Source of the DNA: Candidatus Sungiibacteriota bacterium
GTDB taxonomy: Bacteria; Patescibacteriota; Minisyncoccia; Sungbacterales; HO2-52-23
Assembly (NCBI GenBank): GCA_016432465.1
Contig: CP066690.1
Span: 122,702-186,701, forward strand
Length of the DNA stretch: 64,000 bases
Reading direction: 5' to 3'
Both the position numbers and the translations under genes were made by a program. Of the stretch, positions 2,025 to 17,921 are shown piece after piece. Below the pieces are notes generated by a model that saw nothing but the letters and a program-made list of their open reading frames with translations, was not told the DNA's origin and did not search any database. Each line of letters opens with the position of its first letter. Positions within the stretch are counted from its first letter, which is position 1.

Positions 2025-2067
2025 AAATAGTAAAACGTGGCCGTATTGACGGTGGTAACGAGTAACT

Positions 2068-2640
2068 TCATGCAAATAAGGCCCGTTCAACCAAATCGCA
2101 TATAATATGTCCAAGTGTTATGTGCGTCTCCTGAATGCGTTGCGTATCGTCTGAAGGCACCACCAAGGCGCAATCAACCAAGTCCTTAAGCTTTCCGCCC
2201 CCACGGCCCAAAAATCCGATCACCCGCAAGTTTCGTTTTTTTCCTTCCTCCACTGCCCGCATCACATTGGGCGAGTTGCCACTGGTGCTTATCGCCAACA
2301 AAAGATCCTTGGGGTGGTTGGCCAAGGCCTCCACTTGTCTGGCAAAAATCAGATCATATCCGTAATCGTTGCCCAAGGCCGTAAGAATAGAGGTATCAGT
2401 AGTAAGCGCTATAGCCGGCAGGGCCCGGCGCTCTTTCCTGAATCTGCCCACCAGTTCTCCGGCTATATGCTGGGCATCAGCCGCACTGCCGCCGTTACCC
2501 ATAATAAGCACCTTACCCCCGCCTTGATACGTATCCGCGATCATCTCGGCGGCCTGCACTACCAAATCAGCCAGTGTCTCGGCTGATTTTACTTTTACCT
2601 CGGCGCTCTCCTGCAATTGTCTTATAACTTCTTTTTTCAT
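2068..2640 (-). CDS. gmhA: SIS-domain phosphoheptose isomerase (D-sedoheptulose-7-phosphate isomerase, GmhA-like)
   Basis: 190 aa. SIS motifs [11 protein letters not shown] and [10 protein letters not shown]; size and pattern match GmhA. Confidence 0.7.
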
Positions 2641-3503: not shown

Positions 3504-4412
3504 TTAACTAAAACCCCCGTCCCACAAAACAGGCTGCCTTAATTTCCCTGTTTCCGCGCTGCCGTGTCTTACAAAATCCCAGGATTTTTTAAAAATTTTC
3601 CACGGTCGCGCGAGGAACGGAAGCTCACGGTCTAAATTGCGTAGACGATATTTTAAATAAAACCACGGGGAGCAGTACTCTTTGACCAAACGTCTGGAAT
3701 CTGCCAGATGTCCTTTCGAATTAATCACAACCATGCTGTGATCGTATATAAAGTGGTGAAAGGTATTAAGACGGCAAAATTTAACAACCATGCCCTTTTT
3801 TATAAACTCCAGCACAAACCCGTTATCGGCGTTGGGACTTTCCGGAAAAAGCATGGCCGAACGCACCAAGGCGTCACGGCGGAAAAACCACCCAACCTCC
3901 GCCGCCCCCTTATAACGAAATACGTCCTCTACACTCTTTCCATAATTTACCCCCGGAGGCACGCAGTATTCGGTTATGACACCGTTTCTTTCTTTGGTAC
4001 CGCCGCAGATCAAAAGATCAATTTCCGGATGCGCTTCCAAAGCTTTAATCGCCTGTTTTACCCCTTCCGGATGATAAATATCATCGTCCATCAGCGGTTT
4101 CAAAAACTTTCCCCGCGCCAAAAGTATGGCCTTATTCTGCGCTTCCTGTCCGCAAGTGTCCGGTTCCGAAATAAATACATCTATTAAATCGCGGTAGCGT
4201 GCAGCTACTTCTCCCGTGTGATCTACGGAGTCCCCATCTATCACTATAAGTTCGTCCTGGGGTCCAATAAATTTTTTTGCCCCTTCCAGCGCCCGCGCCA
4301 AATATTCAGCCCTGTTTTTGGTGATGATAAAAAATGAGACACGCTTGGGAGAATACGCATCAAAAGTATATTTTTCGGCCGTTGTTTTTACTACTGAATT
4401 TTTAAAGCTCAT
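3504..4412 (-). CDS. Glycosyltransferase family 2 (GT-A fold)
   Basis: FFIITKNRAEYLARALEG...LIVIDGDSVD pattern typical of GT2. Confidence 0.65.
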   Translation of the reverse strand: MSFKNSVVKTTAEKYTFDAYSPKRVSFFIITKNRAEYLARALEGAKKFIGPQDELIVIDGDSVDHTGEVAARYRDLIDVFISEPDTCGQEAQNKAILLARGKFLKPLMDDDIYHPEGVKQAIKALEAHPEIDLLICGGTKERNGVITEYCVPPGVNYGKSVEDVFRYKGAAEVGWFFRRDALVRSAMLFPESPNADNGFVLEFIKKGMVVKFCRLNTFHHFIYDHSMVVINSKGHLADSRRLVKEYCSPWFYLKYRLRNLDRELPFLARPWKIFKKSWDFVRHGSAETGKLRQPVLWDGGFS

Positions 4413-5400
4413 CTTGCGGCATTCTATAAATTACTTGGCTTCCCGAGAACTCAAATTTGAAAGGCACTTCCAAGAGTCCTGCTAACGCCTCTTGGACCTT
4501 ATCGCGTAATTCCGGTTTTACGAAAATAAGCATAAAACCTCCGCCTCCTGCGCCTAAAATCTTGCCCCCCAAGGCTCCGGCATGCATGGCCGCCTCATAC
4601 ACTTCGTCAATAAAAGGGTTGGTAATTTTTGACGAAAGCGACTTCTTAAGACGCCAACCCTCATGCAAGAGTCTGCCCAAACGTTCCACGGACTCCTTGG
4701 GACTTACTAGGACTTGGGTAGCCTCGTCAACCAAAGCGTGAAGCGCTTTAAGTTCAATTACCTTATGCGGCGTATTTTTTATCTGCTCGGCCGCAACCTC
4801 GGAGGCGTTCCGGGGAAATCCTGTAAAAAAAAGCGCCAAGTGCTTCTCTAGTTCCTGCATACGCTCGCGCGGCAAATCAAGAGGTTTGACCGCGACGTCA
4901 TCTTTGCCTCCGAATCTGATTTGGTTAAGACCGCCAAAAGCAGCGATGGCCTGATCCTGCGACCCCACGTTCTCCCCAATTCTTTTCTGTTCTACGTGAA
5001 TAGCGTCCAGCGCAAGCTTAAGCTTGCTGACTTCCTGTCCCCGCAGGGCGTAAAGGGAATTCAGAAGGCCTACGGTAAAAGAGGAACTTGAACCGAGCCC
5101 CGACATACCCGGCACATCGGTATTATGTTGTATTTCCACCCCTTCATTAAATTCCAAATGATTCAGGCATTCACGAACCGAGGGGTGCTCAATCTCGGCA
5201 ATAGTCTTTGTTTCCTCGTATTTGCTGTAACGGATGCGGTAGTTGCAATCAAAAAAAGGCGGAAGATACCGGCTGATAACATAACAATATTTATTGATGG
5301 AAGCCGAAAGCACTGCTCCTCCATTTTTTTTGTACCAGACCGGATAGTCAGTTCCACCACCGAAAAAAGAGATACGAAAAGGTGTACGGGTGATTATCAT
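4402..5400 (-). CDS. GHMP-family sugar kinase (D-glycero-D-manno-heptose 7-phosphate kinase HddA-like)
   Basis: GHMP motif PGMSGLGSSSSFTVGLL. The C-terminal GAGGGGF is typical of HddA/GHMP kinases. It lies in a cluster with the GmhA-like and HddC-like genes. Confidence 0.65.
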   Translation of the reverse strand: MIITRTPFRISFFGGGTDYPVWYKKNGGAVLSASINKYCYVISRYLPPFFDCNYRIRYSKYEETKTIAEIEHPSVRECLNHLEFNEGVEIQHNTDVPGMSGLGSSSSFTVGLLNSLYALRGQEVSKLKLALDAIHVEQKRIGENVGSQDQAIAAFGGLNQIRFGGKDDVAVKPLDLPRERMQELEKHLALFFTGFPRNASEVAAEQIKNTPHKVIELKALHALVDEATQVLVSPKESVERLGRLLHEGWRLKKSLSSKITNPFIDEVYEAAMHAGALGGKILGAGGGGFMLIFVKPELRDKVQEALAGLLEVPFKFEFSGSQVIYRMPQDEL

Positions 5401-5489: not shown

Positions 5490-6914
5490 TTAACGCCTGA
5501 TATAAACATCAAATTTACTGCATACGACATCGGCAAATTGCTTTCCCGTATCAGTCACAACGATGGTGTCATCCGTAAGTTCAACGATGCCGTCATCTTG
5601 ACACTGCTGCAGCGCTACCATCTCGGGCTGGAAATATTCCGCAAATCTTATATCGTACTTCGTCTCCAGCTCCCTTAAATCAAGTAAAAAGTAATTGCGG
5701 ATGGTCTGTATAATTTCACGACGGAGCTGGTCGTCCCGACTCAGCTTGTGTCCCCGGAAAACTGGAAATTGGTTATGCAGAACGGCTGCCGTATAATCTT
5801 TAAGTCCGGTTTCGGGCGAACTAAAAATATTTTGAAAGTCGTAAAGCGATGCCAAACCGCTCACTGCGCCAACCCCAACACCCAAGACCGCCTGATACCT
5901 GCCGGCTGTAACGCCCATACGGTTCCAGGCCATTTTTCCTTCCCTCATGGCCTCAACTACATCATCGGCGGGTTTTGCAAAATGGTCATAACCAGTACGA
6001 ATATATCCCCCTTCCGTTAAAATTTCCGTGGCCTCAAGAAACAACATCTTGCGCTCGGCATTATCAGGGAAAGACGGCATCAACAACTGGTGAGGGAAAA
6101 ATTGCGGTATAAAGTGCATATAGTTTAAGCAGATCCTGTCCGGAGCCATTTCCACTACCTTTTTCATGGTCCTACGCATAGATTCTCTGGTTTGCTTGGG
6201 TAAACCGCAGATAATGTCAAAGTTTATTCCGTTTCTAAAAAGGCGCCGCAGCTCTGGAGCAATAAGTCTCTCAGTTAACACGGCCGGTTGTACCCGCGCC
6301 ACTGCCTTTTGCACTTCCAAATCAAAATCCTGAACGCCAAAAGAAACTCTGGAAATGCCCTTGCTGGCATAATAGCGCATCCCTTCTTCTTTCACGTGAC
6401 GCGGATCAATCTCTATGGCAAACTCGTCCAAAGAATCAAGGTCTGCGACTTCCCTTAACTTTTCAAGCAACCGATCAAAGTCCTCGTTTGTAAGATAGGT
6501 CGGAGATCCGCCGCCAAGATGTACCTCCCGAAAATTTGGCCGGATTTTGTTTTCTTCCAAAAACCGCTTTAATAGCTCTACCTCCTGATAAAGCACCTCC
6601 AGATATCTTTTTATGTCGCTGTAATTTCTGCTTATAACTACATGGCAGGTACAATAAAGGCACTGGACAGGACAATGGGGAATATGAACATAAAGCATGA
6701 GCGGCACCGTCGGATTTCCAAGAAAAAGTTCCCGCAACGCGTCACGATACTGCTTGTCTCCCTCTTCTGCGGACTGGAAAGCAGTCCAAAAACGCAAATT
6801 AGGATATTCGGTGTACATAAAAGAGCGTTCACCGTATTTCTTAACCAAACGGGGGTCGGGATTGCGCAGGGTCACGACTCTATCTCCAAAAAGAGAACTG
6901 TATAGATTATACAA
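5490..6914 (-). CDS. HemN-like radical SAM enzyme (oxygen-independent coproporphyrinogen oxidase-like / class C rSAM family)
   Basis: 474 aa with HIPHCPVQCLYC CxxxCxxC cluster. Overall length and layout are HemN-like. Confidence 0.65.
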   Translation of the reverse strand: MYNLYSSLFGDRVVTLRNPDPRLVKKYGERSFMYTEYPNLRFWTAFQSAEEGDKQYRDALRELFLGNPTVPLMLYVHIPHCPVQCLYCTCHVVISRNYSDIKRYLEVLYQEVELLKRFLEENKIRPNFREVHLGGGSPTYLTNEDFDRLLEKLREVADLDSLDEFAIEIDPRHVKEEGMRYYASKGISRVSFGVQDFDLEVQKAVARVQPAVLTERLIAPELRRLFRNGINFDIICGLPKQTRESMRRTMKKVVEMAPDRICLNYMHFIPQFFPHQLLMPSFPDNAERKMLFLEATEILTEGGYIRTGYDHFAKPADDVVEAMREGKMAWNRMGVTAGRYQAVLGVGVGAVSGLASLYDFQNIFSSPETGLKDYTAAVLHNQFPVFRGHKLSRDDQLRREIIQTIRNYFLLDLRELETKYDIRFAEYFQPEMVALQQCQDDGIVELTDDTIVVTDTGKQFADVVCSKFDVYIRR

Positions 6915-6961
6915 AAATAGCCGCCATCTGTCGATAGCTAAAAGCCATACCGCATGCCCGC

Positions 6962-6995
6962 TCCAAAAACTGGAAAACCCGCCTGAAGGGCGGGT
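6962..6995 (-). terminator. Rho-independent terminator candidate downstream of the B12-rSAM gene
   Basis: Hairpin CCCGCCtgaaGGGCGGG (6978-6994) followed on the minus strand by a T-rich tract. Confidence 0.45.
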
Positions 6996-7003
6996 AGAAA
7001 AAC

Positions 7004-8371
7004 TTAGGCAGGTTGGGAGCGCGTTTCAACCTTGCCGCCAAAAAACTCAAAAGAATTCAGTCCTCTCTCCCTAAGTCTTTGTAGAAGCTCCGTATAATTT
7101 TTGATAATTTGCTCCGGGGTCATACTTCTCCCCCAAGGAGTTTCTTCTTCATATACAAAAGTAAGTTGCGGCAGCTCGTCCCTGTACTTCCCGTGCTGAT
7201 GCATCATCTTTTTCCAGTCACGGAGCACTTCCCGAATACCAAATCTTTCCGGATGATTATAAACTTCTGTCCCCGGACGTAACGTAAAAATAGCCAAATA
7301 AACAAGGTCGGGTTGGGTTTCTTCAATAAAAGACCACGTTCGCTCCACAATGTCCTCTGGCTCTCCCGGAAGACCAATAATTAAATAGATCCTTGCCTCA
7401 ATGTCATTTTCTTTCAGCACCCTTATGGTGTTTTTAGCTCCTTCAACCGTGGTACGCTTGTTAATTATATCAAGCGATCTTTGCCAAACGCTCTCTACTC
7501 CCAAACCCATGGCCATGCATCCGCTTTGTCTGGCCAAAGCCGCAAGAGAGGACGTAATCCCATCCACACGACATTGCCCCCTCCAAACAATGCTGGTTCT
7601 GCCTATGGCTTCCAGATGACGCTGGGCCTGATCCTCTTTTAGGGGAAGAACGATTTCGTCCGAAAGCGACAAACCCTGAATTCCATATTGGGATTTAAGA
7701 TATTCTATTTCCTCTTCCACCCTTTCAGGGGCCCGATATCTTATACCGGGCACCTCAAGCCGCGCATACTCAATGGCGCAAAAATGACAGCGGTACGGAC
7801 ACCCCCTACTAAACATGGCCGTAGTGCCCAAAAGTTCTTCATAGCCCATTTTGTGTTTGAGATTCATAACACTCTTCCTTGCAGTTGCGCTAGCCGGAAG
7901 AAAATGTCTGCGCCAGTGAGGATAAATATTAATATCTACCGGTTTTGGGTCTCTATATATACGCTCTAGCCTCTGCCCCATGAAGTCTTCCAGCGCCTGA
8001 ATAACGGTTCGTTCTCCTTCGCCCAGAATTAAAGCATCAAATACCTCCAGTGACTCTTGAGTAAACATATTAGCATGCGGCCCGCCCGCAATGTGCCGCG
8101 CCCGGGGATAGTGACTGCGCAACGATTTCACTATGGAACATTGCTCTTCATAGTCCAGGGTATAAACAGAATGCAGATAAACATCGCACTCGGGAATGTG
8201 GTAGATGGCCGAGTCTCTTTTGATGCCGCGTAGATCAACTAATCTGGCCTCCACGTCGCGTCCGAAGTGATCCTCCAAAATGGTTAATAACTGAAAGTGA
8301 ACAAAGGGGTCCCCGCGAAAAGGGTCAAACAGATAGTCGCTCGACGGGAATATAAATCCTACCTCCAGCAT
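7004..8371 (-). CDS. B12-binding (cobalamin) radical SAM enzyme
   Basis: N-terminal B12-binding-like domain, then rSAM cluster SRGCPYRCHFCA. Confidence 0.7.
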   Translation of the reverse strand: MLEVGFIFPSSDYLFDPFRGDPFVHFQLLTILEDHFGRDVEARLVDLRGIKRDSAIYHIPECDVYLHSVYTLDYEEQCSIVKSLRSHYPRARHIAGGPHANMFTQESLEVFDALILGEGERTVIQALEDFMGQRLERIYRDPKPVDINIYPHWRRHFLPASATARKSVMNLKHKMGYEELLGTTAMFSRGCPYRCHFCAIEYARLEVPGIRYRAPERVEEEIEYLKSQYGIQGLSLSDEIVLPLKEDQAQRHLEAIGRTSIVWRGQCRVDGITSSLAALARQSGCMAMGLGVESVWQRSLDIINKRTTVEGAKNTIRVLKENDIEARIYLIIGLPGEPEDIVERTWSFIEETQPDLVYLAIFTLRPGTEVYNHPERFGIREVLRDWKKMMHQHGKYRDELPQLTFVYEEETPWGRSMTPEQIIKNYTELLQRLRERGLNSFEFFGGKVETRSQPA

Positions 8372-8472
8372 TTTTTGTCCCTGTTATAAAAGATCATTAT
8401 TTTTAATTTTACTATAAAAACTGCTCTCTAGCAAGCTTGGCATGGAAACTTGGATGATTATTGGCGTCAAAC

Positions 8473-8506
8473 TTAAAAAGAAAGTACCGCATCGGGGTGA
8501 TGCGGC
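8473..8506 (-). terminator. Rho-independent terminator candidate
   Basis: Hairpin CCGCATCggggtGATGCGG (8487-8505) followed by a T-run on the minus strand, downstream of the stop at 8523. Confidence 0.5.
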
Positions 8507-8522
8507 AGTAAGTATCTGCTGC

Positions 8523-10379
8523 TTAATTAGCTGGCTGACGGAGTCGTATATCTTCTTCCACGCGGCGCATAATCTCGTTTAGTCCGAGGACGGCAAAACG
8601 CAAACGCCAGTAGGCTACGCTTTCGGAGAATGTCTTGGCCAGCGCAAGTCGTCTTTGGGCCTCTTCCGGTCTTCCCAACTTAAATTCCAAAACTGCAAAA
8701 TAAAGATTGACTAGAGCGTTATTGGCGTGGGTTTTGTCGCAAATGTTCACAAAGAGCTTTCTTAACATTTCAAGTTTTATAGGATTTTCCTCCCGCCAGA
8801 TTTTTCCTTCATAATTTATTTTCCAGTCCATCACCATCCAAATATCCGCGATCTCGTCTCTCTGGGGAACATAAACAGGATCTCCATCCAGTAAATTTAC
8901 AAATTCCTTGGCCCGCTCCTTTTGTCCGGCGACATTACGGATATGCTGTCCGGTGGATCCTGTAAACGGCCGCTCTGTTCCGTCAATCAGCTGCTGTTGG
9001 GTAAGAAGACCGGTATTGAGCGCGTGGTTGGTAATTTCTACGCCGGGAATGTAGTTCAAAACCTGAATAGTGGACCAATCGGGCTGCGTTTCAACGCAAA
9101 GCTTAATGGTCTGCCAAACCTCACCAATAGTTTCATCAGGAAACCCAACGATTAAAAGAAACTTGGTAAAAATCTGGGGATATTTTCGCAGTATCTCCAT
9201 GCAACGGTGGAAGTGGCGCACACCGCTAGGTTTCTTAACGGATCGCAAAATCCTCTCACTGCCTGACTCTACGCCAAAACTCAAGCCAATGCATCCTGAT
9301 TCGTACGCGGCCTGTGCAATTTCCTCGGTCATGGCAGAAGCAATGATGCCATTGGACGCATCCCACGTGATTCCAAGGTTCCTCCTGACCATTTCGTTAA
9401 ATAAAGCCACCGGGCCTCCATAAAGAAGATCATCGTCCAGCCACATAATATGCCGGACTCCATAGGTATCACGGATGTACTCAATTTCATCCACCACGTC
9501 GCTAGCCGGCCGGTCAAAGACTCCCCGACCGTTAAAATTACGTACCGAACAGAAAGTGCATTGAGCCCGACACCCGACGTTAGCCAGAACCGTAGAAGCG
9601 CGGGTGCCTTCCGGCCATAACCAATAGTAAACCCCTATTCGTCCGTTTTTGGGACTGTAATCGCCAATCCTTAAATCATGGTAGTAGGGCCGGACACTTA
9701 CCGAGGTTCTGTTTTTAGCGGCCCTGTTTTTTAAAACGGTATATTCGCCATCAATTAGCGCGGCTATCTGTGATAGCGCCTCTTCTCCGGCTCTGCCGTT
9801 TACAAAATCCAGCAAGTCACCAAAAGCCGTATTGCCTTCGTAAAGACCAATAAAATCAATCTCCGGACAATCTTTCAAAACCATTTCTCCTGCCTGCGTA
9901 GTATGTACTCCTCCGGCAATAATGGAGACGTAGGGATAATTTTCACGGATAAACTCCGCAGTTCTTTTCATGGCGCGGTGTGTAACTGTAAACATGCAGG
10001 TCAGAGCAACAAGGTCGGGTTGAAAATTTTCTATCCTTTCCCGAAGCCATTCTTCCCACACATCGTAGTTAAACCCCTGACGCCCTGATTGTAATTCTTC
10101 CTGAAGATCAAAGTTGAGATCAATAAGGTCTGTCTCGTATCCGCGCTCTCTTAGGTTTCGGGAAAGAACGCCAAGCCCGTATGGAGGATAAACCGGATAG
10201 CGATTACCGACTGCAACTTCCACAGAGTAATCTTCTTTGGGAACATGGACCGGATTAACCAGTAGAACACGACGGCAACCTTGAGGCAATTTAAATCGTA
10301 GCTTCTCGGCTATTAGGCGCCGAAGCAGGTTATCTGCCTTTGACGTAACTGTTTTTAGCTCCACCACCAGCTGCCCCAA
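8523..10379 (-). CDS. B12-binding radical SAM enzyme with C-terminal helical/TPR-like extension
   Basis: rSAM cluster NVGCRAQCTFCSV preceded by a B12-binding-type Rossmann region; 618 aa. Confidence 0.7.
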   Translation of the reverse strand: MGQLVVELKTVTSKADNLLRRLIAEKLRFKLPQGCRRVLLVNPVHVPKEDYSVEVAVGNRYPVYPPYGLGVLSRNLRERGYETDLIDLNFDLQEELQSGRQGFNYDVWEEWLRERIENFQPDLVALTCMFTVTHRAMKRTAEFIRENYPYVSIIAGGVHTTQAGEMVLKDCPEIDFIGLYEGNTAFGDLLDFVNGRAGEEALSQIAALIDGEYTVLKNRAAKNRTSVSVRPYYHDLRIGDYSPKNGRIGVYYWLWPEGTRASTVLANVGCRAQCTFCSVRNFNGRGVFDRPASDVVDEIEYIRDTYGVRHIMWLDDDLLYGGPVALFNEMVRRNLGITWDASNGIIASAMTEEIAQAAYESGCIGLSFGVESGSERILRSVKKPSGVRHFHRCMEILRKYPQIFTKFLLIVGFPDETIGEVWQTIKLCVETQPDWSTIQVLNYIPGVEITNHALNTGLLTQQQLIDGTERPFTGSTGQHIRNVAGQKERAKEFVNLLDGDPVYVPQRDEIADIWMVMDWKINYEGKIWREENPIKLEMLRKLFVNICDKTHANNALVNLYFAVLEFKLGRPEEAQRRLALAKTFSESVAYWRLRFAVLGLNEIMRRVEEDIRLRQPAN

Positions 10380-10435
10380 TATCGTCTTAAGTGCTGGTCA
10401 TTATTATACTACAAAACCAGTTTCAAACAAGACCG

Positions 10436-10470
10436 GAATCAAAAACTAAATCTCCACCCAAGGGTGGAGA
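10436..10470 (-). terminator. Rho-independent terminator candidate
   Basis: Hairpin TCTCCACCCaaGGGTGGAGA (10451-10470) with T-rich tail on the minus strand, just downstream of the stop at 10476. Confidence 0.5.
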
Positions 10471-10475
10471 GACAA

Positions 10476-11456
10476 TTAACTAGAGAAGAGATTAAATCGT
10501 GTCTGCCGGGCGAAATCTTTGTGGGTACGGTACCACTCCACAGTTTCGCGAATTCCTTCCTCCAACGAAATCTGCGGCTCAAAACCAAGAGACCGCGCTC
10601 TTTGAACGTCCAGGACTCTTCGGCGGTCGCCGCTGGGCCCGGAATCCTTCCAAATTGTTTTCGGCGTACACTCTGAATGCCGTAAAACTATCTCTAACAC
10701 CTGCCGTATGGTGTATCCTATGCCACTTCCCAGATTTACCGGCTCGGAGACTCCTTTCTTGGCAACCAGCATCATTCCTCGCGCCACGTCCCGCGCATGA
10801 ATGAAGTCCCTCACCTGCAGTCCGTCACTTTCCATCCTCAAAGGATTCCTGCCGCCTACTGCCTCCCGAATCAAATAAGGAATCACCATGGCCGCATCCG
10901 ACTCAAAATCATCATACGGTCCATAGGTATTGGCCGGACGCACAATGGAAATTTTTTCCCAACCATACTGGAGCCTATAGGCTTCGGCCTGAATCTCCCC
11001 CATGCGTTTAGCCAGCCCCGCAAACCAATCATTCTTAGAAGGAAAACCTTTCCAGACGTCATCTTCGTGGAATACTTCAGCCGGAGGATAAACGGCAAGA
11101 GAGCTTGCCAGTAAATAACCGTCAGCCCCCTTCTCCCGAGCGGCGCTAAGCATGTTTACGTCAAGCATCAAATTCATTTCAAAAAGCGTAGCGGGTTTTT
11201 CTTTGTTAAACCGCGGGGGGCCCTTGGCACATAATAAATTAAACACATAGTCCATCCCCTCGCAGACATGCAAACAATTATCCATTTTTAGCAAATCAAT
11301 CTTGCGAAACTCTGCTTGCTTGTGCGCACGCGATTCATGATCCAGAGATGCGATCCGGACTTGAGCTCCTTCCTGAATTAAAATCTCCACCAAGGGTATT
11401 CCAATAAGCCCAGTGCCTCCGGCAACCAACACTTTTTTATTGGCGAAGTCAAACAT
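10476..11456 (-). CDS. NAD-dependent epimerase/dehydratase (extended SDR; GDP-sugar 4-epimerase/reductase-like)
   Basis: N-terminal KVLVAGGTGLIGIPLVE Rossmann motif; extended-SDR length of 326 aa. Confidence 0.7.
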   Translation of the reverse strand: MFDFANKKVLVAGGTGLIGIPLVEILIQEGAQVRIASLDHESRAHKQAEFRKIDLLKMDNCLHVCEGMDYVFNLLCAKGPPRFNKEKPATLFEMNLMLDVNMLSAAREKGADGYLLASSLAVYPPAEVFHEDDVWKGFPSKNDWFAGLAKRMGEIQAEAYRLQYGWEKISIVRPANTYGPYDDFESDAAMVIPYLIREAVGGRNPLRMESDGLQVRDFIHARDVARGMMLVAKKGVSEPVNLGSGIGYTIRQVLEIVLRHSECTPKTIWKDSGPSGDRRRVLDVQRARSLGFEPQISLEEGIRETVEWYRTHKDFARQTRFNLFSS

Positions 11457-13426
11457 TAGAAGTGCCCTGCTTTTTCGGGTTCACATTTGATATTGCCATA
11501 AAGATACGCGCCTCTTTTGTTGCCATACCAGACAACAAGTTTATACCAATCCTCCCAGCTCTGCCAATGCTCGCTGTTGCGATCAACCCTGTAAATAAAA
11601 CTTCCCCGGACAAGCGCTACGTCACACATTGCGCGTACGCCCCGATAAAATTCCCAGATATTGTAGGAGAGCGTAAGAACGGTGTCTTCTTCAACAAAGG
11701 GAAGTTTTATAAGACCCTGATTAAGCTCTATGGCTTGACGGAGTAACTCTTCGTCAACAACGATATTATTTGTTCTGAAGAACTGCGTAAGGACCCGCCG
11801 GGCCTCGTCATAAAATTGATCCAGTTTTCCTTCTCTGCAAAGCTTAATAAAGATAAATTCGTCCACCGGCCAATAGATATTCAACCACTCCGGCGCCGGA
11901 CAATACTCTATGCCCCCGGCCATAATGCTTTTTGCCTTTGCGCGGAAAAAAGATTGTATTTCCTTAAGCACCGGGAATTCTTCCAGTTCCCCTTCGGTAA
12001 ATACCTCAATCAGACGACGATAAGACACGCCCGTGGTTTGACGCAAAACTATCAACGGTATCTGAAAAACTTTGTCAAAGTGCAGAAGCGAGGTCGTCCA
12101 GCAAAACACTCTGGTGCGCGCCCAGTCTTCCCGCGTCAGGGTGCTGGTTTCTACCACAATATCTTCGCTTTCTGCTACCTGATCTGGTGTTTCATCAATA
12201 ACACCGTGAAAGATAACTGCTTTAACCTCAACGGTTTTAAGTCCATACCTCGCTACATACTGCGGATCGGACATGGGAGCATTGGGCATCATAGAAAGAT
12301 TGCCAAACTGAATCCGGTTGTGCTGTCCCTGCTCAATGGTAAGCGCAACTCCATCGGCAAAAGAATTATAGGTTTCTTGGGGTAAAGCAATAAGCATATC
12401 GCTGTAAGTATCAATGCCGGCCTCGGTAAACCTTCTCTGAAGATTACGGAAGGCATCCATAGAAATATTTGTTCTCTCCACTGCCCGCAAAACTTCCGGA
12501 TCCTGCGACTGAAAAGCAATGGTTACACCGGTACTTAAACCGGCATCGGCAAGAATTTTTTGCGTCTGAAAAATACGTTCCTCTGCGTTTTTGGCATTCT
12601 GCGTAGAAAGGGCTCTGGGCAGACCGTAGTGCGCTTTGATCTCCGCGGCTTTTCGTGCAATATCAACGTCTCTCGGCAGCAGTCCGAAGTTGGCGTCACA
12701 ACAAAATATAAACTGTATCTTATGCTGCGCAAACCACTCCAGCTCTTTAAACAAAATCTCCAGATCAAATCTAATTACTTTATTTTTAGTGTTGGAGCCC
12801 CAGTCGCAGAAAGAACAAAAAAAAGGACAGCCGCGATTAGTTTCCCACAACGCATCCCATCTTTGATTAGGGTATGCTTCCATCAAAGGAGTAAAGGTTC
12901 CGTTAAGGTAGGGTGAGGGCATGACAGCGAGACTTCGCATCCTCGGAAGCCATTGCGTCTGAACACAGTTGCCCGAAGGGTCCAGAAAACTTACCGAAGG
13001 TACTTCCCCCCATTCTCCGGAAAAACTTTTTTCCAAAATATGGACAAAGGCTTGTTCTCCCTCGTTATGGCAGGCAAGATCTACAAAACGGTTTTTTCTC
13101 AAAAATTCTTCCGAACGATCCGGTACTTCGGGCCCGCCAAAAACAGTAATAACACTTGGTCTTTTTTGTTTTAGGCGCCGGGCAATTTCCAAAGAAATAT
13201 TGCGGTTCCAAACATAAAGACTGAATCCAACAAGATCAGCCTCCAGCAGATGCTCCACGGCGATGTCGACCGGAATACGTTTGTAAACCGGCAGAAGAAA
13301 TTGGTAGTTTCCGGGGTCAGCAACATTCTTTTGAGCATAAACCTGAAGGTCGGCGACCGAAAGCGGAAGATACGTTACTCCGGAGAATTCATTATTGATC
13401 TGCACCAAACCTATTTTCAGCGCCAT
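11456..13426 (-). CDS. B12-binding radical SAM enzyme (third paralog)
   Basis: rSAM cluster NRGCPFFCSFCDWG; N-terminal B12-binding-like region; 656 aa. Confidence 0.7.
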   Translation of the reverse strand: MALKIGLVQINNEFSGVTYLPLSVADLQVYAQKNVADPGNYQFLLPVYKRIPVDIAVEHLLEADLVGFSLYVWNRNISLEIARRLKQKRPSVITVFGGPEVPDRSEEFLRKNRFVDLACHNEGEQAFVHILEKSFSGEWGEVPSVSFLDPSGNCVQTQWLPRMRSLAVMPSPYLNGTFTPLMEAYPNQRWDALWETNRGCPFFCSFCDWGSNTKNKVIRFDLEILFKELEWFAQHKIQFIFCCDANFGLLPRDVDIARKAAEIKAHYGLPRALSTQNAKNAEERIFQTQKILADAGLSTGVTIAFQSQDPEVLRAVERTNISMDAFRNLQRRFTEAGIDTYSDMLIALPQETYNSFADGVALTIEQGQHNRIQFGNLSMMPNAPMSDPQYVARYGLKTVEVKAVIFHGVIDETPDQVAESEDIVVETSTLTREDWARTRVFCWTTSLLHFDKVFQIPLIVLRQTTGVSYRRLIEVFTEGELEEFPVLKEIQSFFRAKAKSIMAGGIEYCPAPEWLNIYWPVDEFIFIKLCREGKLDQFYDEARRVLTQFFRTNNIVVDEELLRQAIELNQGLIKLPFVEEDTVLTLSYNIWEFYRGVRAMCDVALVRGSFIYRVDRNSEHWQSWEDWYKLVVWYGNKRGAYLYGNIKCEPEKAGHF

Positions 13427-14089: not shown

Positions 14090-14812
14090 TTAAATAATTG
14101 ATTGATGCAGAGTAATCTCGTACGCCACTTCACGACGTCGGGATCCCAAGGTGTAATTTTCGCCGCGCAAAATATACATAATACCAAAGTGGGGCCTGGA
14201 ACGTACAACAGAAGTATTGGGATAAGAGCCGTGAATCAGGTTACCGTGCTGAACGTATAAAGATCCTTTCGGTAAATAAAGATCACTTTTGTCATAATGA
14301 GCAGGGACCCCTACTTCATTGCCGGGATTGTCCTGCGGATCAAAACTTGGGTGCGGTACAAACGGCAGAAGCGGCTCGTGATGTGATTGCGGATAAAGAT
14401 ACATGCCACCGTTTTCCGGATCACTATCTGCCAGAGAAAAAATGGCCGAGAGCGATACACCACGGCGCGCCCGAAGATAAGCATTGTCCTGATGCGGACG
14501 CCAAGCGTGTCTGGCAAAAGGCGTACCGGGCTTTTTAAATAAAACTTGCGACCCGATGCATAATGCCTCTCCACCCAGCACCTCTTCAACTATCGCCACA
14601 AGTAACGGCTGTTTTATTAAATGCAGAATTTCTGGTGCCTTCAACTCAATGTTTAAAATCCCCGGGAAGTCCGACTCCGCGTGCGCTTCAAAAATTGCAA
14701 GTAACCAAGCGCAGTAGTCAGATGAAAGAAGGTTGTTAACGACCAAATAGCCCTTTTCTGCATAAAAAATTCTCTCGGCTTCAGTCAGTACTGACGGCAT
14801 GATCTCTACCAC
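14090..14812 (-). CDS. Phytanoyl-CoA dioxygenase (PhyH) family Fe(II)/2-oxoglutarate-dependent oxygenase
   Basis: WRPHQDNAY motif and a downstream H; about 240 aa. Confidence 0.65.
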   Translation of the reverse strand: MVEIMPSVLTEAERIFYAEKGYLVVNNLLSSDYCAWLLAIFEAHAESDFPGILNIELKAPEILHLIKQPLLVAIVEEVLGGEALCIGSQVLFKKPGTPFARHAWRPHQDNAYLRARRGVSLSAIFSLADSDPENGGMYLYPQSHHEPLLPFVPHPSFDPQDNPGNEVGVPAHYDKSDLYLPKGSLYVQHGNLIHGSYPNTSVVRSRPHFGIMYILRGENYTLGSRRREVAYEITLHQSII

Positions 14813-14875
14813 CTCGATGTCCTTTAAATTATGGTACTTGAGGGCCGTTTAGGAGTCAAGATGAAAAATTTATCG

Positions 14876-14906
14876 GTACAAAAAAGGGGTTCTAGACCCC
14901 TTTTGG
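14876..14906 (-). terminator. Rho-independent terminator candidate (symmetric, could act bidirectionally)
   Basis: AAAAAGGGGTTCTAGACCCCTTTT palindrome with flanking A/T runs, immediately downstream of the stop at 14919. Confidence 0.55.
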
Positions 14907-14918
14907 TTATTATAGAGG

Positions 14919-15755
14919 TTATGTAAACCGCCTGCATCTAACAGCTTTTTTCCAGGATTCGTGGCCGCAAGCTAAACACGCTTCTTTTCTCTGCGCTATT
15001 CTGCCCGGCACAAAGTTCTTGCCCTTGCTGATTCCTAAAGTGCCGTAAGGCACAAGCAACATGGCCCGCGACCTTTCAGACTCATTGGAACGCGATCCAT
15101 GAATAACGTTGCCATGCAGAAAAAGAACACTACCTTTCTTAAATTCAAGATCAACGGCTTGGTACCTGGATGGAACTTCTACGCAATGTCCCGGACTTTT
15201 TCCTGATTTCTCATGGAAACTTTTTACTTTAACGCTCGGCAGTATAGGCTCTTTATGTGAGCCGGGATAAATATACATTCCGCCATTCTCAACAGTGTGA
15301 TCTTCAAGAGCAATGTTGCCGGTAATGTACATACCGTAATCTGCCTGCGGGTAGGCATTGTCTTGATGCGGATTCCATGCCTGCAAGGCATAGGAAGTTC
15401 CAGCCCGTTTGAAAAGAACCATGGACTGCAAATGAACAACCTCCGCGAGCTGCAGTATACCTAAAATCTTAACCAGGCGGTGGTCGCTAATCATGGACCA
15501 GACAGCCAGACTGTCATCTGCCAAAACCTCCCTGCGCTCAACTTTTTCATTACCGTCTGCATCCTGTTCCTGATACTCAACAAAGCCGCGTTCCAAATTC
15601 ATGATGCCGCGAAAATCAGGCTTGGCATAGCGCTCATAAACCCGCAGTACGGCTCCGCACTCTGCCGGAACAAAAACATCAGGCACAACTAAATAACCGT
15701 TTTCTTTATAAAGTTGTACTTGTACTGAAGTCAGGCCGCACCCGCAAATATCCAC
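14919..15755 (-). CDS. PhyH-family Fe(II)/2OG dioxygenase (paralog)
   Basis: WNPHQDNAY motif. Paralogous to 14090..14812. Confidence 0.65.
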   Translation of the reverse strand: MDICGCGLTSVQVQLYKENGYLVVPDVFVPAECGAVLRVYERYAKPDFRGIMNLERGFVEYQEQDADGNEKVERREVLADDSLAVWSMISDHRLVKILGILQLAEVVHLQSMVLFKRAGTSYALQAWNPHQDNAYPQADYGMYITGNIALEDHTVENGGMYIYPGSHKEPILPSVKVKSFHEKSGKSPGHCVEVPSRYQAVDLEFKKGSVLFLHGNVIHGSRSNESERSRAMLLVPYGTLGISKGKNFVPGRIAQRKEACLACGHESWKKAVRCRRFT

Positions 15756-17763: not shown

Positions 17764-17879
17764 GGCTGGGGGTCATCTCCAAAACCTTTTTCATAGCGAG
17801 GTTGCTCAATCTGCAGCAGAAAAGGGGGTTTAGAGATGGCCCTGTAATAATAAAACGCCGGGGTTTGCTCGCTGGTATC

Positions 17880-17912: not shown

Positions 17913-17921
17913 CTTAAATGT

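What the first reader, a model, noticed from the sequence alone, without database searches (positions are those of the whole stretch)
5490..13426. Four radical SAM enzymes in a row (one HemN-like plus three cobalamin-binding) embedded in a sugar-biosynthesis cluster
The stretch encodes:
- a HemN-like rSAM (CPVQCLYC);
- three separate B12-binding rSAM proteins (GCPYRCHFC, GCRAQCTFC, GCPFFCSFC);
- an NAD-dependent epimerase/dehydratase, interleaved with them.

B12-rSAM enzymes typically methylate unactivated carbons, or catalyse other difficult C-H chemistry, on sugars (aminoglycosides), lipids or peptides. Three paralogs plus a class-C-type rSAM next to GDP-heptose and nonulosonic-acid genes implies an unusually heavily C-modified, possibly multiply methylated, glycan building block. 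Alternatively they could belong to a separate secondary-metabolite pathway hitch-hiking in the island. The substrate cannot be deduced from sequence.
Basis: partly seen in the sequence, partly recalled or inferred. Interest (0 to 1): 0.6.

Follow-up and report, generated by a model that had tools for sequence, protein, structure and literature searches.

The report
Radical-SAM sugar-tailoring cassette in CPR bacterium
Four radical-SAM enzyme genes sitting inside a cell-surface sugar gene island of a tiny-genome (CPR) bacterium belong to a gene set that recurs in many bacterial phyla. It most likely builds an unusually carbon-modified sugar by chemistry not yet described for cell-envelope glycans.

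Summary
Window 5490-13426 (minus strand) encodes four radical-SAM (rSAM) proteins and one Fcl-like SDR, with the quoted CxxxCxxC motifs.

- **Not close paralogs.** The three "B12-type" proteins share only 19-24% identity.
- **rSAM-A** is 38% identical to the carbapenem methylase TokK and keeps the two tryptophans specific to TokK/ThnK/CysS.
- **rSAM-B** has a clear B12 domain but belongs to no curated family.
- **rSAM-C** has the Rossmann+rSAM architecture. Its B12-domain score is below threshold, and its best structural match is the sugar diol-dehydratase AprD4.
- **The HemN-like protein** just passes NCBI's HemN model (348 bits; E. coli HemN scores 808). It belongs to a subfamily found in glycan loci, not heme loci.

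rSAM-A relatives occur in at least 584 species genomes, usually next to a heptose-type kinase, a nucleotidyltransferase, SDRs and a TPP E1 enzyme. All four rSAMs recur together, in shuffled order, in at least eight other distinct loci. Natural fusions (rSAM-A::HemN-like; HemN-like::PhyH) tie them together functionally.

Best reading: a conserved, uncharacterised radical tailoring cassette for a GDP-activated sugar. The chemistry and the product are inferred, not shown.

The parts
11456..13426 (-). rSAM-A: TokK-like cobalamin-type radical SAM protein (656 aa; GenBank QQG45438)
   Evidence: Pfam B12-binding 45.8 bits plus Radical_SAM. PDB: TokK 7kdx E 2e-102, CysS 9n1b E 2e-53. 38% identity to TokK over 462 aa. 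W73 and W209 correspond to TokK Trp76 and Trp215 and are invariant in 21 homologs. The NCBIfam KedN5 subfamily scores 246 bits against a cutoff of 700.
10476..11456 (-). Fcl-like extended SDR (326 aa), start overlapping the rSAM-A stop
   Evidence: Pfam Epimerase 141 bits and GDP_Man_Dehyd 80 bits. The NCBIfam GDP-L-fucose synthase model scores 127 bits against a cutoff of 500. The same rSAM-A-SDR pair is seen in L005, L006, L008 and L090.
8523..10379 (-). rSAM-B: B12-binding radical SAM protein (618 aa, or 614 aa from 10367)
   Evidence: Pfam B12-binding 66.5 bits plus Radical_SAM 67.5 bits. Best NCBIfam matches are Sden_1168 (143 bits, cutoff 575) and PhpK (109 bits, cutoff 600). The family is small: 297 clusters at 50% identity with E<=1e-30. 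It is often adjacent to HemN-like and PhyH genes.
7004..8371 (-). rSAM-C: Rossmann+radical SAM protein (455 aa), cobalamin use uncertain
   Evidence: Radical_SAM 63 bits; B12-binding 27.2 bits, below the gathering score of 32.1. AF2 model pLDDT 86. Foldseek top hit is AprD4 6fd2 (TM 0.69), followed by MgmA, TsrM, TokK, CysS and OxsB. The family is 57-68% identical across CPR, Elusimicrobia, Nitrospirota and Geomonas. It usually sits next to E1 alpha/beta, DJ-1 and cupin genes.
5490..6914 (-). HemN-like radical SAM protein (474 aa; probable start ATG at 6875 = 461 aa; GenBank QQG45434, named coproporphyrinogen III oxidase)
   Evidence: Radical_SAM plus HemN_C. TIGR00538 scores 348 bits against a cutoff of 325, whereas E. 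coli HemN scores 808. 1OLT scores 244 bits and NocN 64 bits. The subfamily alignment is A3. Homolog contexts are glycan loci only. It is found fused to rSAM-A and to PhyH.
4402..5400 (-). HddA-like GHMP sugar kinase
   Evidence: Pfam GHMP_kinases_N and _C. NCBIfam HddA scores 146 bits against a cutoff of 600. A relative (>=44% identity) is present in 42 of 62 rSAM-A-anchored loci.
3504..4412 (-). GT2 glycosyltransferase
   Evidence: Pfam Glycos_transf_2. It has the same position in L005.
2637..3491 (-). HddC-like sugar-1-phosphate nucleotidyltransferase
   Evidence: Pfam NTP_transferase. NCBIfam HddC scores 115 bits against a cutoff of 300.
2068..2640 (-). GmhA-like sedoheptulose-7-P isomerase (SIS)
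   Evidence: SIS_2 103 bits. TIGR00441 scores 205.7 bits against a cutoff of 209.45.
951..2114 (-). NeuB-family nonulosonic acid synthase-like gene, overlapping the GmhA end
   Evidence: Pfam NeuB 250 bits. TIGR03569 scores 311 bits against a cutoff of 400.
14090..15755 (-). Two PhyH-family Fe(II)/2-oxoglutarate dioxygenase genes (14090-14812, 14919-15755)
   Evidence: Pfam PhyH. They co-occur with HemN-like and rSAM-B. P0137 is a HemN-like::PhyH fusion.
15840..20977 (-). HAD phosphatase, DJ-1/PfpI, cupin, Fcl-like SDR, and TPP-dependent E1 beta and E1 alpha. This sub-module travels with rSAM-C.
   Evidence: Pfam and NCBIfam. In 32 rSAM-C-anchored loci the frequencies are E1b 84%, E1a 78%, DJ-1 72% and cupin 69%.
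10451..10470 (-). Terminator-like hairpin between the SDR and rSAM-B
   Evidence: Consensus scan. This is a pattern match only.
8485..8507 (-). Terminator-like hairpin between rSAM-B and rSAM-C
   Evidence: Consensus scan. This is a pattern match only.

Best explanation
The four radical-SAM genes and the SDR are tailoring enzymes of a conserved, multi-phylum cassette. The cassette remodels a GDP-activated manno-type sugar (GDP-heptose here; GDP-mannose-derived in some relatives) before it is built into a cell-surface glycan.

**Proposed flow (inferred)**
1. GmhA, an HddA-like kinase, a phosphatase and an HddC-like transferase make the nucleotide heptose.
2. Fcl-like SDRs and a cupin generate and later reduce keto intermediates.
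3. The TPP-dependent E1 alpha/beta enzyme adds a two-carbon branch.
4. rSAM-A, a TokK/CysS-type cobalamin-dependent methylase, transfers one or more methyl groups to an unactivated carbon. This is possibly an extension of the branch. The translationally coupled SDR then reduces the neighbouring ketone.
5. rSAM-B, a second B12-domain enzyme, works in a sub-module with the HemN-like protein and the PhyH dioxygenases.
6. The HemN-like protein is not a heme enzyme. It performs a second radical step on the same sugar: either a HemN-type oxidative decarboxylation or a two-SAM methylene/methyl transfer.
7. rSAM-C works with the E1/DJ-1/cupin sub-module. It is either another B12 methylase or an AprD4-like radical dehydratase.

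**What is shown:** domain content, family placement, conserved co-localisation and gene fusions.

**What is inferred:** substrates, order of steps, the chemistry of each enzyme, and the product.
For: **Domains and motifs:**

**rSAM-A**
- TokK 7kdx E 2e-102 and 38% identity.
- It keeps Trp76 and Trp215, which the TokK paper reports as conserved only in TokK, ThnK and CysS. These are W73 and W209, invariant in alignment A1.
- TokK's carboxylate-binding Arg280 is replaced by an invariant Ser274. This fits a different substrate.
- At least 584 species genomes carry rSAM-A relatives.
- In 62 loci of at least 12 kb: Fcl-like SDR 87%, HddA-like kinase 68%, E1-like 66%, HddC-like 55%.
- The ortholog on an Azospirillum sp. 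TSA2s plasmid sits next to GDP-mannose 4,6-dehydratase, SDRs, a split transketolase, GT61 and NUDIX.
- The Kovacikia minuta and JGI loci have GmhA, a kinase and an HddC-HAD fusion.

**Co-localisation of the four rSAMs**
- All four co-localise in L005, L008, L101, L102, L125, L146, L159/L171 and L167, in different gene orders.
- In 32 rSAM-C-anchored loci: E1b 84%, DJ-1 72%, rSAM-A 66%, HemN-like 62%, rSAM-B 38%.

**Fusions**
- The Geomonas limicola 1117-aa protein is rSAM-A (47% identity) fused to HemN-like (41% identity).
- P0137 is HemN-like fused to PhyH.

**HemN-like homologs** lie in glycan loci, never beside heme genes.

**E1 alpha/beta-type enzymes** installing two-carbon sugar branches: PMC4753412 and its reference to AviB1/B2.
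Against: - No product, substrate or activity is known for any member.
- None of the three B12-type proteins reaches any curated NCBIfam cutoff, so their functions are extrapolated from distant relatives.
- GmhA, HddA and HddC all score below their equivalog cutoffs. The sugar may therefore not be a heptose.
- The HemN-like protein formally passes the HemN equivalog model.
- rSAM-C's B12 domain is sub-threshold, and its best fold match is AprD4.
- Oxygen-dependent PhyH enzymes in the same cluster as oxygen-sensitive rSAMs are unexplained.
- No cobalamin uptake or salvage gene lies in the 64-kb window, and no cobalamin riboswitch was found.
- CPR bacteria are not known to make B12.
Confidence: 0.7

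Rival explanations
1. The HemN-like gene is a genuine oxygen-independent coproporphyrinogen III dehydrogenase (heme biosynthesis) that merely lies inside the glycan island. This is how GenBank names it.
For: - TIGR00538 (hemN equivalog) scores 347.9 bits, above the cutoff of 324.95.
- It aligns full-length to E. coli HemN 1OLT at 244 bits.
- Tyr56, His58, the CxxxCxxC+Cys motif, GGGxPT and Glu145 equivalents are conserved.
- GenBank and UniProt name it coproporphyrinogen III oxidase.
Against: - E. coli HemN scores 808 bits on the same model. Every glycan-associated subfamily member tested scores only 355-414.
- Identity to E. coli HemN is 34%, against 48-69% within the subfamily.
- HemN Phe310 and Gln311 are replaced: position 311 is Leu/Met and position 310 is variable. 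By my recollection of the HemN mutagenesis literature these residues contact the second SAM.
- All six homolog contexts inspected are glycan loci without heme genes.
- It occurs fused to the TokK-like rSAM and to PhyH.
- CPR bacteria generally lack tetrapyrrole synthesis (general knowledge; not checked in this genome).
Confidence: 0.03
2. The rSAM block is a separate secondary-metabolite (antibiotic-type) pathway that has landed in the glycan island and is unrelated to the surrounding sugar genes.
For: The closest characterised relatives are natural-product enzymes: TokK/ThnK, CysS, KedN5, PhpK, AprD4 and NocN.
Against: - The same rSAM families are embedded among nucleotide-sugar genes, glycosyltransferases and flippases in many phyla. 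The order is shuffled but the membership is conserved.
- There is no NRPS, PKS, RiPP precursor or resistance gene in the window.
- GC content (0.46-0.475) equals that of the surroundings.
- The rSAM-A stop overlaps the start of a sugar-type SDR.
Confidence: 0.05
3. rSAM-C is not a cobalamin enzyme. It is an AprD4-like radical SAM dehydratase that deoxygenates a sugar 1,2-diol, with one of the neighbouring SDRs acting as its reductase partner. On this reading the cluster has two B12 enzymes, not three.
For: - Pfam B12-binding scores only 27.2 bits, below the gathering score of 32.1.
- The best PDB sequence hit is AprD4.
- The best structural hit is AprD4, at TM 0.69 over the full length.
- AprD4 acts on an aminoglycoside sugar and pairs with a dehydrogenase/reductase (AprD3). 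AprD4's cobalamin independence is from my own knowledge.
- SDRs are abundant in these loci.
Against: - Sequence identity to AprD4 is only 16%.
- The NCBIfam AprD4 model scores 47 bits against a cutoff of 500.
- True Cbl enzymes (MgmA, TsrM, TokK, CysS, OxsB) follow closely in the fold ranking.
- Most family members carry a precomputed PF02310 hit.
- A five-stranded Rossmann domain is present in the model.
Confidence: 0.35
4. The rSAM enzymes act on something other than a soluble nucleotide sugar: the assembled polymer, a lipid-linked intermediate, or the glycosylated protein.
For: - Nothing in the sequence fixes the substrate.
- TokK and CysS act on carrier-tethered substrates (9n1b description).
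- rSAM-C has weak similarity to a lipid-biosynthesis B12/rSAM family (TIGR04072, 80 bits).
Against: - The tightest and most widespread partners are cytoplasmic nucleotide-sugar enzymes (kinase, nucleotidyltransferase, SDRs, TPP enzyme), more so than polymerases or flippases.
- The proteins have no evident membrane or export features in their domain content.
- rSAM-A is translationally coupled to an Fcl-like SDR.
Confidence: 0.15

Closest known systems
TokK / ThnK (carbapenem C6 sequential methylases) and CysS (cystobactamid alkoxy-extending methylase), the cobalamin-dependent radical SAM class B
   Same: rSAM-A shares the three-part layout (N-terminal Cbl Rossmann domain, rSAM barrel, large C-terminal domain). 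It is 38% identical to TokK over 462 residues, more than the 29% reported between CysS and TokK. It has both clade-specific tryptophans, Trp76 under the corrin and Trp215 after the third cluster cysteine.
   Different: - TokK's substrate-anchoring Arg280 is an invariant Ser.
- The C-terminal domain (residues 475-656) has no detectable similarity.
- It scores far below the KedN5-subfamily cutoff (246 vs 700).
- Its genomic context is nucleotide-sugar/glycan, not beta-lactam or polyketide.
- It is present in at least 584 species across many phyla.
GenK / GenD1 / Fms7 / MoeK5, the cobalamin-dependent rSAM C-methylases acting on sugars of antibiotics
   Same: They show the same general idea: B12-rSAM methylation of an unactivated sugar carbon (listed in PMC9204698).
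   Different: Those enzymes tailor aminoglycoside or moenomycin secondary metabolites in actinomycetes and belong to other sequence clusters. Here the enzymes sit in cell-envelope glycan loci and are TokK-like (rSAM-A) or unclassified (rSAM-B, rSAM-C). I could not align against GenK directly because no sequence was available in the tools.
HemN (E. coli coproporphyrinogen III dehydrogenase, PDB 1OLT) and HemN-like class C radical SAM methylases (NosN/NocN, TbtI, C10P, Jaw5, ChuW)
   Same: It has the full-length HemN fold signature, the cluster motif with the fourth Cys, GGGxPT, the Glu145 equivalent and the SAM-II-stacking Tyr56 equivalent. It passes TIGR00538 marginally.
   Different: It scores less than half the HMM score of real HemN. 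Positions 310/311 are changed. It has a subfamily-specific N-terminal motif (FMYTEYPHKxFW). It is always in glycan loci and is fused to a TokK-like rSAM or to PhyH. It is only distantly related to NocN (64 bits). The 2022 review of HemN-like proteins mentions no sugar or polysaccharide role.
AprD4 (radical SAM 1,2-diol dehydratase of apramycin biosynthesis, PDB 6FD2)
   Same: It is the best structural and best PDB sequence match of rSAM-C. Both have the same two-domain Rossmann+rSAM layout and similar length (455 vs 457 aa), and AprD4 also has a sugar substrate.
   Different: Identity is only 16%. The NCBIfam AprD4 model scores 47 bits against a cutoff of 500. The partner genes differ (E1 alpha/beta, DJ-1, cupin).
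Sden_1168 (SD_1168) / PhpK family B12-rSAM methyltransferases
   Same: These are the best curated-family matches of rSAM-B across both the B12 and rSAM domains (143 and 109 bits).
   Different: The scores are far below the cutoffs (575 and 600). No phosphonate genes (PEP mutase) are in the window. SD_1168's own physiological substrate is unknown (PMC9204698). rSAM-B also has an extra C-terminal domain of about 150 aa.
Campylobacter-type GDP-heptose remodelling (GmhA/HddA/HddC plus Fcl-like reductases and cupin epimerases) and E1-type two-carbon sugar branching (AviB1/AviB2)
   Same: The window and related loci hold the same enzyme types: SIS isomerase, GHMP kinase, nucleotidyltransferase (fused to a GmhB-like HAD in L006/L007), several Fcl-like SDRs, a cupin, and TPP E1 alpha/beta.
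   Different: No known heptose or branched-sugar pathway includes radical SAM enzymes. All of the heptose-pathway proteins here score below their equivalog cutoffs.

Membership tests
Radical SAM superfamily | CxxxCxxC cluster motif within a PF04055 domain | tested here: met
   All four proteins have it: motifs read, and PF04055 at E 7e-12 to 2e-18, above the gathering score.
Cobalamin-dependent (class B) radical SAM enzymes | N-terminal B12-binding Rossmann domain (PF02310) at or above the gathering score | tested here: met
   rSAM-A scores 45.8 bits and rSAM-B 66.5 bits against a gathering score of 32.1.
Cobalamin-dependent (class B) radical SAM enzymes | The same domain in rSAM-C | tested here: inconclusive
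   27.2 bits, below 32.1. The AF2 model has a five-stranded Rossmann domain. However, the top fold match is AprD4, followed by true Cbl enzymes.
Cobalamin-dependent (class B) radical SAM enzymes | Actual binding and use of cobalamin | not testable with these tools
   This needs purified protein. These enzymes bind Cbl base-off/His-off, so there is no universal sequence motif (PMC13331322).
TokK/ThnK/CysS sequential methylase clade | Trp76 (under the corrin) and Trp215 (active site), reported as conserved only in this clade | tested here: met
   W73 and W209 of rSAM-A align to them and are invariant in 21 homologs. The clade-specificity statement comes from bioRxiv 10.1101/2021.07.10.451909.
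TokK/ThnK/CysS sequential methylase clade | Substrate carboxylate anchor Arg280 (TokK) | tested here: not met
   It aligns to Ser274, which is invariant in the rSAM-A family.
TokK/ThnK/CysS sequential methylase clade | Iterative (two or more) methyl transfers | not testable with these tools
   This requires an enzyme assay.
KedN5 subfamily (NCBIfam NF033712) | Score at or above the curated cutoff of 700 bits | tested here: not met
   246 bits, matching only residues 63-415.
HemN, coproporphyrinogen III dehydrogenase (TIGR00538 equivalog) | HMM score at or above the cutoff of 324.95 | tested here: met
   347.9 bits. This is marginal: E. coli HemN scores 808.3, and eight subfamily members score 355-414.
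HemN, coproporphyrinogen III dehydrogenase (TIGR00538 equivalog) | Conservation of Phe310/Gln311 (second-SAM/substrate region of E. coli HemN; their role is recalled from the mutagenesis literature) | tested here: not met
   E. coli 'NFQGYT' aligns to 'NRMGVT' here. Across the subfamily the motif is 'WNxLGVT'.
HemN, coproporphyrinogen III dehydrogenase (TIGR00538 equivalog) | Association with tetrapyrrole biosynthesis genes, or an organism that makes heme | tested here: not met
   The window and loci L005, L008, L088-L091 show only glycan genes around it. The whole-genome heme pathway was not checked.
Class C (HemN-like) radical SAM methylases | Two-SAM site, marked by a conserved Tyr stacking on SAM-II | tested here: met
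   The Tyr56 equivalent is invariant in alignment A3. Its role is described in PMC13266988. This feature is shared with HemN itself, so it does not discriminate.
Class C (HemN-like) radical SAM methylases | Methyl/methylene transfer to an sp2 carbon | not testable with these tools
Similarity to NocN is only 64 bits, and ChuW/HutW scores 119 bits against a cutoff of 400.
AprD4 family radical SAM diol-dehydratase (NF033070) | Score at or above the cutoff of 500 | tested here: not met
   rSAM-C scores 47 bits, on the rSAM core only. The fold similarity (TM 0.69) is the best in the PDB.
Sden_1168 / PhpK P-methyltransferases | Score at or above the cutoffs (575 / 600) | tested here: not met
   rSAM-B scores 143 and 108.6 bits.
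GDP-D-glycero-alpha-D-manno-heptose pathway (GmhA, HddA, GmhB, HddC) | Each enzyme reaching its equivalog cutoff | tested here: inconclusive
   GmhA scores 205.7 vs 209.45, just below. HddA scores 146 vs 600 and HddC 115 vs 300. There is no clear GmhB in the window, although HddC is fused to a GmhB-like HAD in L006/L007. The Azospirillum locus uses GDP-mannose 4,6-dehydratase instead.

The most novel reading that the evidence does not exclude
This is a widespread, undescribed "radical alkyl-branch builder" for bacterial cell-surface sugars.

- A TPP enzyme puts an acyl branch on a GDP-4-keto sugar.
- A TokK-like cobalamin radical SAM enzyme then extends it by iterative methylation, giving ethyl- or isopropyl-type branches.
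- A HemN-derived enzyme, fused to the methylase in Geomonas, adds a second radical step such as oxidative decarboxylation or methylene/cyclopropane formation.

The product would be a class of sugars not yet seen in glycans. It would also make vitamin B12, which an ultra-small CPR cell must obtain from others, a requirement for building its envelope.
Probability: 0.2. Interest if true: 0.85.

Novelty: new variant of a known kind. Interest (0 to 1): 0.65.

Why it matters
- **New setting for these enzymes.** Cobalamin-dependent and HemN-like radical SAM enzymes are known almost entirely from antibiotics, cofactors and lipids. Two recent reviews of these families contain no mention of sugars or polysaccharides of the cell envelope.
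- **Scale.** If the cassette works as proposed, hundreds of species from more than ten phyla use radical C-C chemistry to make an unknown rare sugar. They include CPR bacteria, Elusimicrobia, cyanobacteria, alphaproteobacteria and one archaeal MAG.
- **New chemistry to look for.** It would add enzyme subfamilies, possibly new sugar structures, and a new role for B12 at the cell surface.
- **CPR dependence.** For CPR bacteria it would be a concrete example of dependence on a cofactor supplied by the community.
- **Annotation error.** A systematic mis-annotation is flagged: this HemN-like subfamily is being named coproporphyrinogen oxidase.
- **Testable now.** Cultured carriers exist, so the question can be addressed experimentally.

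Tried and rejected
- **Cobalamin riboswitch or other known RNA upstream of the block.** Rfam gathering on the whole window gave 0 hits. Permissive scans of both long intergenic regions gave nothing credible; the only hit was a chance miRNA match at E 0.03.
- **tRNA genes or integration signs.** None found. GC profile is flat.
- **Small ORFs in the 663-nt gap upstream of rSAM-A.** Nothing convincing. The RNA fold z-score is only -1.9.
- **Literature.** Searches on radical SAM/cobalamin combined with heptose, LPS, capsule, flagellin glycosylation, CPR, branched sugars, or HemN combined with polysaccharide found no paper describing this cassette. The C. jejuni HS:19 capsule "radical SAM metalloprotein" is mentioned only as an annotation.
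- **"Three recent paralogs".** Rejected, because pairwise identity is 19-24%.
- **True HemN.** Rejected as the main reading.
- **Phosphonate P-methylation by rSAM-B.** Considered because of the PhpK/Sden_1168 similarity. No PEP-mutase-type gene is in the window and the scores are far below the cutoffs.
- **Cobalamin uptake or salvage in the whole genome.** Not possible: only the 64-kb window was available, and it contains none.

Full report
**1. Observation**

Every gene in the 64-kb window is on the minus strand, apart from a few short plus-strand ORFs. The stated interval holds five ORFs exactly as described:

| Name used here | Coordinates | Length | Cluster motif |
|---|---|---|---|
| rSAM-A | 11456-13426 | 656 aa | GCPFFCSFC |
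| SDR | 10476-11456 | 326 aa | none; its start overlaps the rSAM-A stop |
| rSAM-B | 8523-10379 | 618 aa | GCRAQCTFC |
| rSAM-C | 7004-8371 | 455 aa | GCPYRCHFC |
| HemN-like | 5490-6914 | 474 aa | CPVQCLYC |

- Pfam finds Radical_SAM in all four rSAM proteins and HemN_C in the last.
- B12-binding is above threshold in rSAM-A (45.8 bits) and rSAM-B (66.5 bits). It is below threshold in rSAM-C (27.2 vs 32.1).
- The SDR matches Epimerase/GDP_Man_Dehyd.
- The HemN-like protein probably starts at the ATG at 6875 (461 aa). This is the form called on other assemblies. It fits the homolog N-termini and lies behind an 11/12 promoter-like site at 6934-6906.
- The three B12-type proteins are only 19-24% identical to one another. 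They are three different families, not recent paralogs.

**2. Source and surroundings**

- The five proteins are GenBank QQG45434-QQG45438 from a Candidatus Sungiibacteriota MAG (Parcubacteria, CPR). They lie on a 923,469-bp contig. They also occur on Logan assemblies of SRR12113384/385/420/422.
- GenBank already names them generically. The HemN-like one is called "oxygen-independent coproporphyrinogen III oxidase".
- The whole window is one glycan island.
  - Downstream of the block lie an HddA-like GHMP kinase, a GT2, an HddC-like nucleotidyltransferase, a GmhA-like isomerase and a NeuB-like synthase.
  - Upstream lie two PhyH dioxygenases, a HAD phosphatase, DJ-1/PfpI, a cupin, Fcl-like SDRs and TPP-dependent E1 alpha/beta.
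  - Further upstream are RfaE-II-like nucleotidyltransferases with NUDIX partners, a transketolase, a KDPG-type aldolase, an aldehyde dehydrogenase and CMP-sugar synthetase-like genes.
  - The rest of the island holds an FkbM methyltransferase, three TagF-like transferases, an ABC exporter, two carbamoyltransferases and many glycosyltransferases.
- GC content in the block equals that of the rest of the window.
- No tRNA, no Rfam family and no cobalamin riboswitch were found.
- No cobalamin transport or salvage gene is in the window.

**3. rSAM-A**

- Its best solved relatives are TokK (E 2e-102, 38% identity over 462 residues) and CysS (E 2e-53).
[quoted passage not shown] It also states that Arg280 anchors the substrate carboxylate.
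- In rSAM-A these positions are W73, W209 and S274. All three are invariant in an alignment of 21 homologs.
- rSAM-A therefore belongs to the TokK/CysS-type clade but has a different substrate pocket and an unrelated C-terminal domain.
- It fails the KedN5-subfamily cutoff (246 vs 700 bits).
- The family is large. There are 3453 hits below 1e-10 and relatives in at least 584 species-representative genomes.
- Phyla represented: Elusimicrobia, Patescibacteria, Planctomycetota, Omnitrophota, Acidobacteriota, Nitrospirota, Cyanobacteria, Verrucomicrobiota, Beta- and Alphaproteobacteria, and one Methanoperedens MAG.
- Cultured carriers include Reyranella soli, Enhydrobacter aerosaccus, Kovacikia minuta, and Azospirillum sp. 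TSA2s, where it is on a plasmid.
- In 62 rSAM-A-anchored loci of at least 12 kb, an Fcl-like SDR is present in 87%, an HddA-like kinase in 68%, an E1-like TPP enzyme in 66% and an HddC-like transferase in 55%. The other three rSAMs are present in only 2-5%.
- In Azospirillum the neighbours include GDP-mannose 4,6-dehydratase.
- The common denominator is a GDP-activated manno-type sugar that passes through keto intermediates.

**4. The other three rSAMs**

*rSAM-C*
- Its family is tight (57-68% identity, 747 hits). It occurs in CPR lineages, Elusimicrobia, Nitrospirota and the cultured Geomonas limicola.
- A confident AF2 model (pLDDT 86) has a five-stranded Rossmann domain plus an rSAM barrel.
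- Its best PDB match is AprD4 (TM 0.69). Genuine Cbl enzymes follow: MgmA, TsrM, TokK, CysS and OxsB.
- AprD4 is a sugar 1,2-diol dehydratase. To my knowledge it does not use cobalamin. Cobalamin use by rSAM-C is therefore open.

*rSAM-B*
- It has a solid B12 domain.
- It matches only SD_1168/PhpK-type models, far below their cutoffs. The physiological role of SD_1168 is itself unknown (PMC9204698).
- Its family is small, with 297 clusters at 50% identity and E<=1e-30.

*HemN-like protein*
- It is 34% identical to E. coli HemN. It keeps the cluster motif with the fourth Cys, GGGxPT, and the Tyr56, His58 and Glu145 equivalents.
- Tyr56 stacks on the second SAM and is conserved in HemN-like enzymes (PMC13266988).
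- It passes TIGR00538 at 348 bits against a cutoff of 325. E. coli HemN scores 808, and eight subfamily members score 355-414.
- Positions 310/311 of HemN are changed.
- It is only weakly similar to the class C methylase NocN (64 bits).

**5. Linkage**

- Thirty-two metagenome loci of at least 12 kb were anchored on rSAM-C. Among them E1 beta appears in 84%, E1 alpha in 78%, DJ-1 in 72%, cupin in 69%, rSAM-A in 66%, HemN-like in 62% and rSAM-B in 38%.
- All four rSAMs are present in seven of these loci, two of which (L159/L171) carry the same gene arrangement. They are also all present in L005 (73% identical rSAM-A) and in an Elusimicrobia genome (L008).
- The gene orders and strands differ among these loci. 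That pattern is expected when co-localisation is selected and not merely inherited.
- Three sub-modules recur:
  - rSAM-A with an Fcl-like SDR or an aldo-keto reductase.
  - PhyH with HemN-like and rSAM-B.
  - DJ-1, cupin, E1 alpha and E1 beta with rSAM-C.
- Two natural fusions link the parts:
  - A 1117-aa Geomonas limicola protein is full-length rSAM-A (47% identity) joined to full-length HemN-like (41% identity).
  - P0137 is HemN-like joined to PhyH.
- HemN-like homolog neighbourhoods in three further large contigs are glycan loci with no heme genes.

**6. Mechanism (inferred)**

- The kinase, nucleotidyltransferase and isomerase set makes a GDP-heptose-type sugar. Related loci carry an HddC-GmhB-like fusion.
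- Fcl-like SDRs and the cupin resemble the Campylobacter GDP-heptose remodelling enzymes (own knowledge).
- E1 alpha/beta-type TPP enzymes install two-carbon branches on keto sugars in antibiotic pathways (PMC4753412).
- A TokK/CysS-type enzyme abstracts a hydrogen with 5'-dA radical and delivers a methyl radical from methylcobalamin, often repeatedly on a growing alkyl group.
- I therefore propose that rSAM-A C-methylates the nucleotide sugar, possibly extending a branch. The coupled SDR then reduces the adjacent ketone.
- The HemN-like enzyme performs a further radical step on the same molecule. This is either an oxidative decarboxylation or a two-SAM methylene transfer.
- rSAM-B is a second methylase.
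- rSAM-C is either a third methylase or an AprD4-like dehydratase.
- Only the family placements, co-localisation and fusions are shown. All of the chemistry is inference.

**7. Rivals**

- *True HemN* is very unlikely (section 4).
- *A hitch-hiking secondary-metabolite cluster* is not supported (sections 2, 3, 5).
- *rSAM-C without cobalamin* is a serious sub-alternative, at about one in three.
- *Action on polymer or lipid-linked substrates* cannot be excluded.
- The coexistence, and even fusion, of O2-dependent PhyH with O2-sensitive rSAM domains is unexplained. It could mean that aerobic and anaerobic catalysts are provided for related steps.

**8. Novelty**

- Sugar-directed Cbl-rSAM methylases are known only from antibiotic pathways: GenK/GenD1, Fms7 and MoeK5.
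- Reviews of B12-rSAM enzymes (2026) and HemN-like proteins (2022) contain no mention of sugars or polysaccharides.
- Eight full-text searches found no description of this cassette.
- The enzymes belong to known superfamilies. The subfamilies, their combination and their setting in cell-envelope glycan loci appear undescribed.
- I rate this a new variant of a known kind, with interest 0.65.

Noticed in passing
window 13427-14089 and 45160-45848: The two unusually long intergenic regions of the window share a repeat in inverted orientation. One piece is a core of about 100 nt at 85% identity (13679-13774 vs 45399-45495). A second piece is 60 nt (13573-13632 vs 45690-45747). Three independent Logan contigs end 218 nt upstream of rSAM-A, just before the repeat, as if assemblies break there. 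There is no Rfam match, no convincing ORF, and the fold z-score is only -1.9. It could be a MITE-like element or an unknown small RNA.
   Followed up: partly
L091:12809-16162 (Geomonas limicola BLXZ01000004.1) and protein P0137: There are two natural gene fusions. One is a 1117-aa protein made of a full-length TokK-like rSAM-A and a full-length HemN-like domain. The other is a 742-aa HemN-like::PhyH protein. The second joins an oxygen-sensitive radical SAM domain to an oxygen-dependent Fe/2OG dioxygenase domain.
   Followed up: yes
window 5490-6914 (QQG45434) and homologs P0150, P0171, P0207, P0211 etc.: A whole glycan-associated HemN-like subfamily scores 348-414 bits on TIGR00538 (cutoff 325; E. 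coli HemN scores 808). It is therefore named 'oxygen-independent coproporphyrinogen III oxidase' in public annotation. This is probably a systematic mis-annotation.
   Followed up: yes
L058 (MAG: Candidatus Methanoperedens sp., JAQUQX010000007.1): An rSAM-A relative (49% identity) lies next to GmhA-, HddC- and HddA-like genes (52, 43 and 60% identity) on a contig binned as an archaeon. This suggests either inter-domain transfer of the core cassette or a binning error.
   Followed up: no
window 51512-55208; L007:18407-20770: A DUF4956 / VTC-domain / CotH-kinase+beta-helix (NosD-like) trio lies in the island. A similar 787-aa CotH/NosD/beta-helix protein lies near the rSAM-A homolog in an unrelated JGI contig. 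This hints at a recurring partner of these glycan loci.
   Followed up: no
window 20990-22161 and 24098-25781: Two RfaE-domain-II-like (heptose-1-P adenylyltransferase-like) small nucleotidyltransferases are each paired with NUDIX hydrolases, giving three NUDIX genes in 5 kb. NUDIX genes also sit next to rSAM-A or HemN-like homologs in L007, L088, L090 and the Azospirillum plasmid. Their role is unknown; one possibility is nucleotide-sugar proofreading or recycling.
   Followed up: no
window 34630-35982, 40638-42038, 42035-43408, 35991-37784, 43405-45159, 48702-50405, 55230-58664: The rest of the island encodes three TagF-like (Glyphos_transf) paralogs, an ABC exporter, two carbamoyltransferases and a 1144-aa protein with three or four GT4 modules. 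This suggests a teichoic-acid-like or heavily decorated polymer in a CPR bacterium.
   Followed up: no
window 10451-10470, 8485-8507, 6906-6934: Terminator-like hairpins follow the SDR and rSAM-B genes, and a near-consensus promoter-like site precedes the HemN-like gene. The "row" of rSAM genes may therefore be several transcription units and not one operon. These are pattern matches only.
   Followed up: partly
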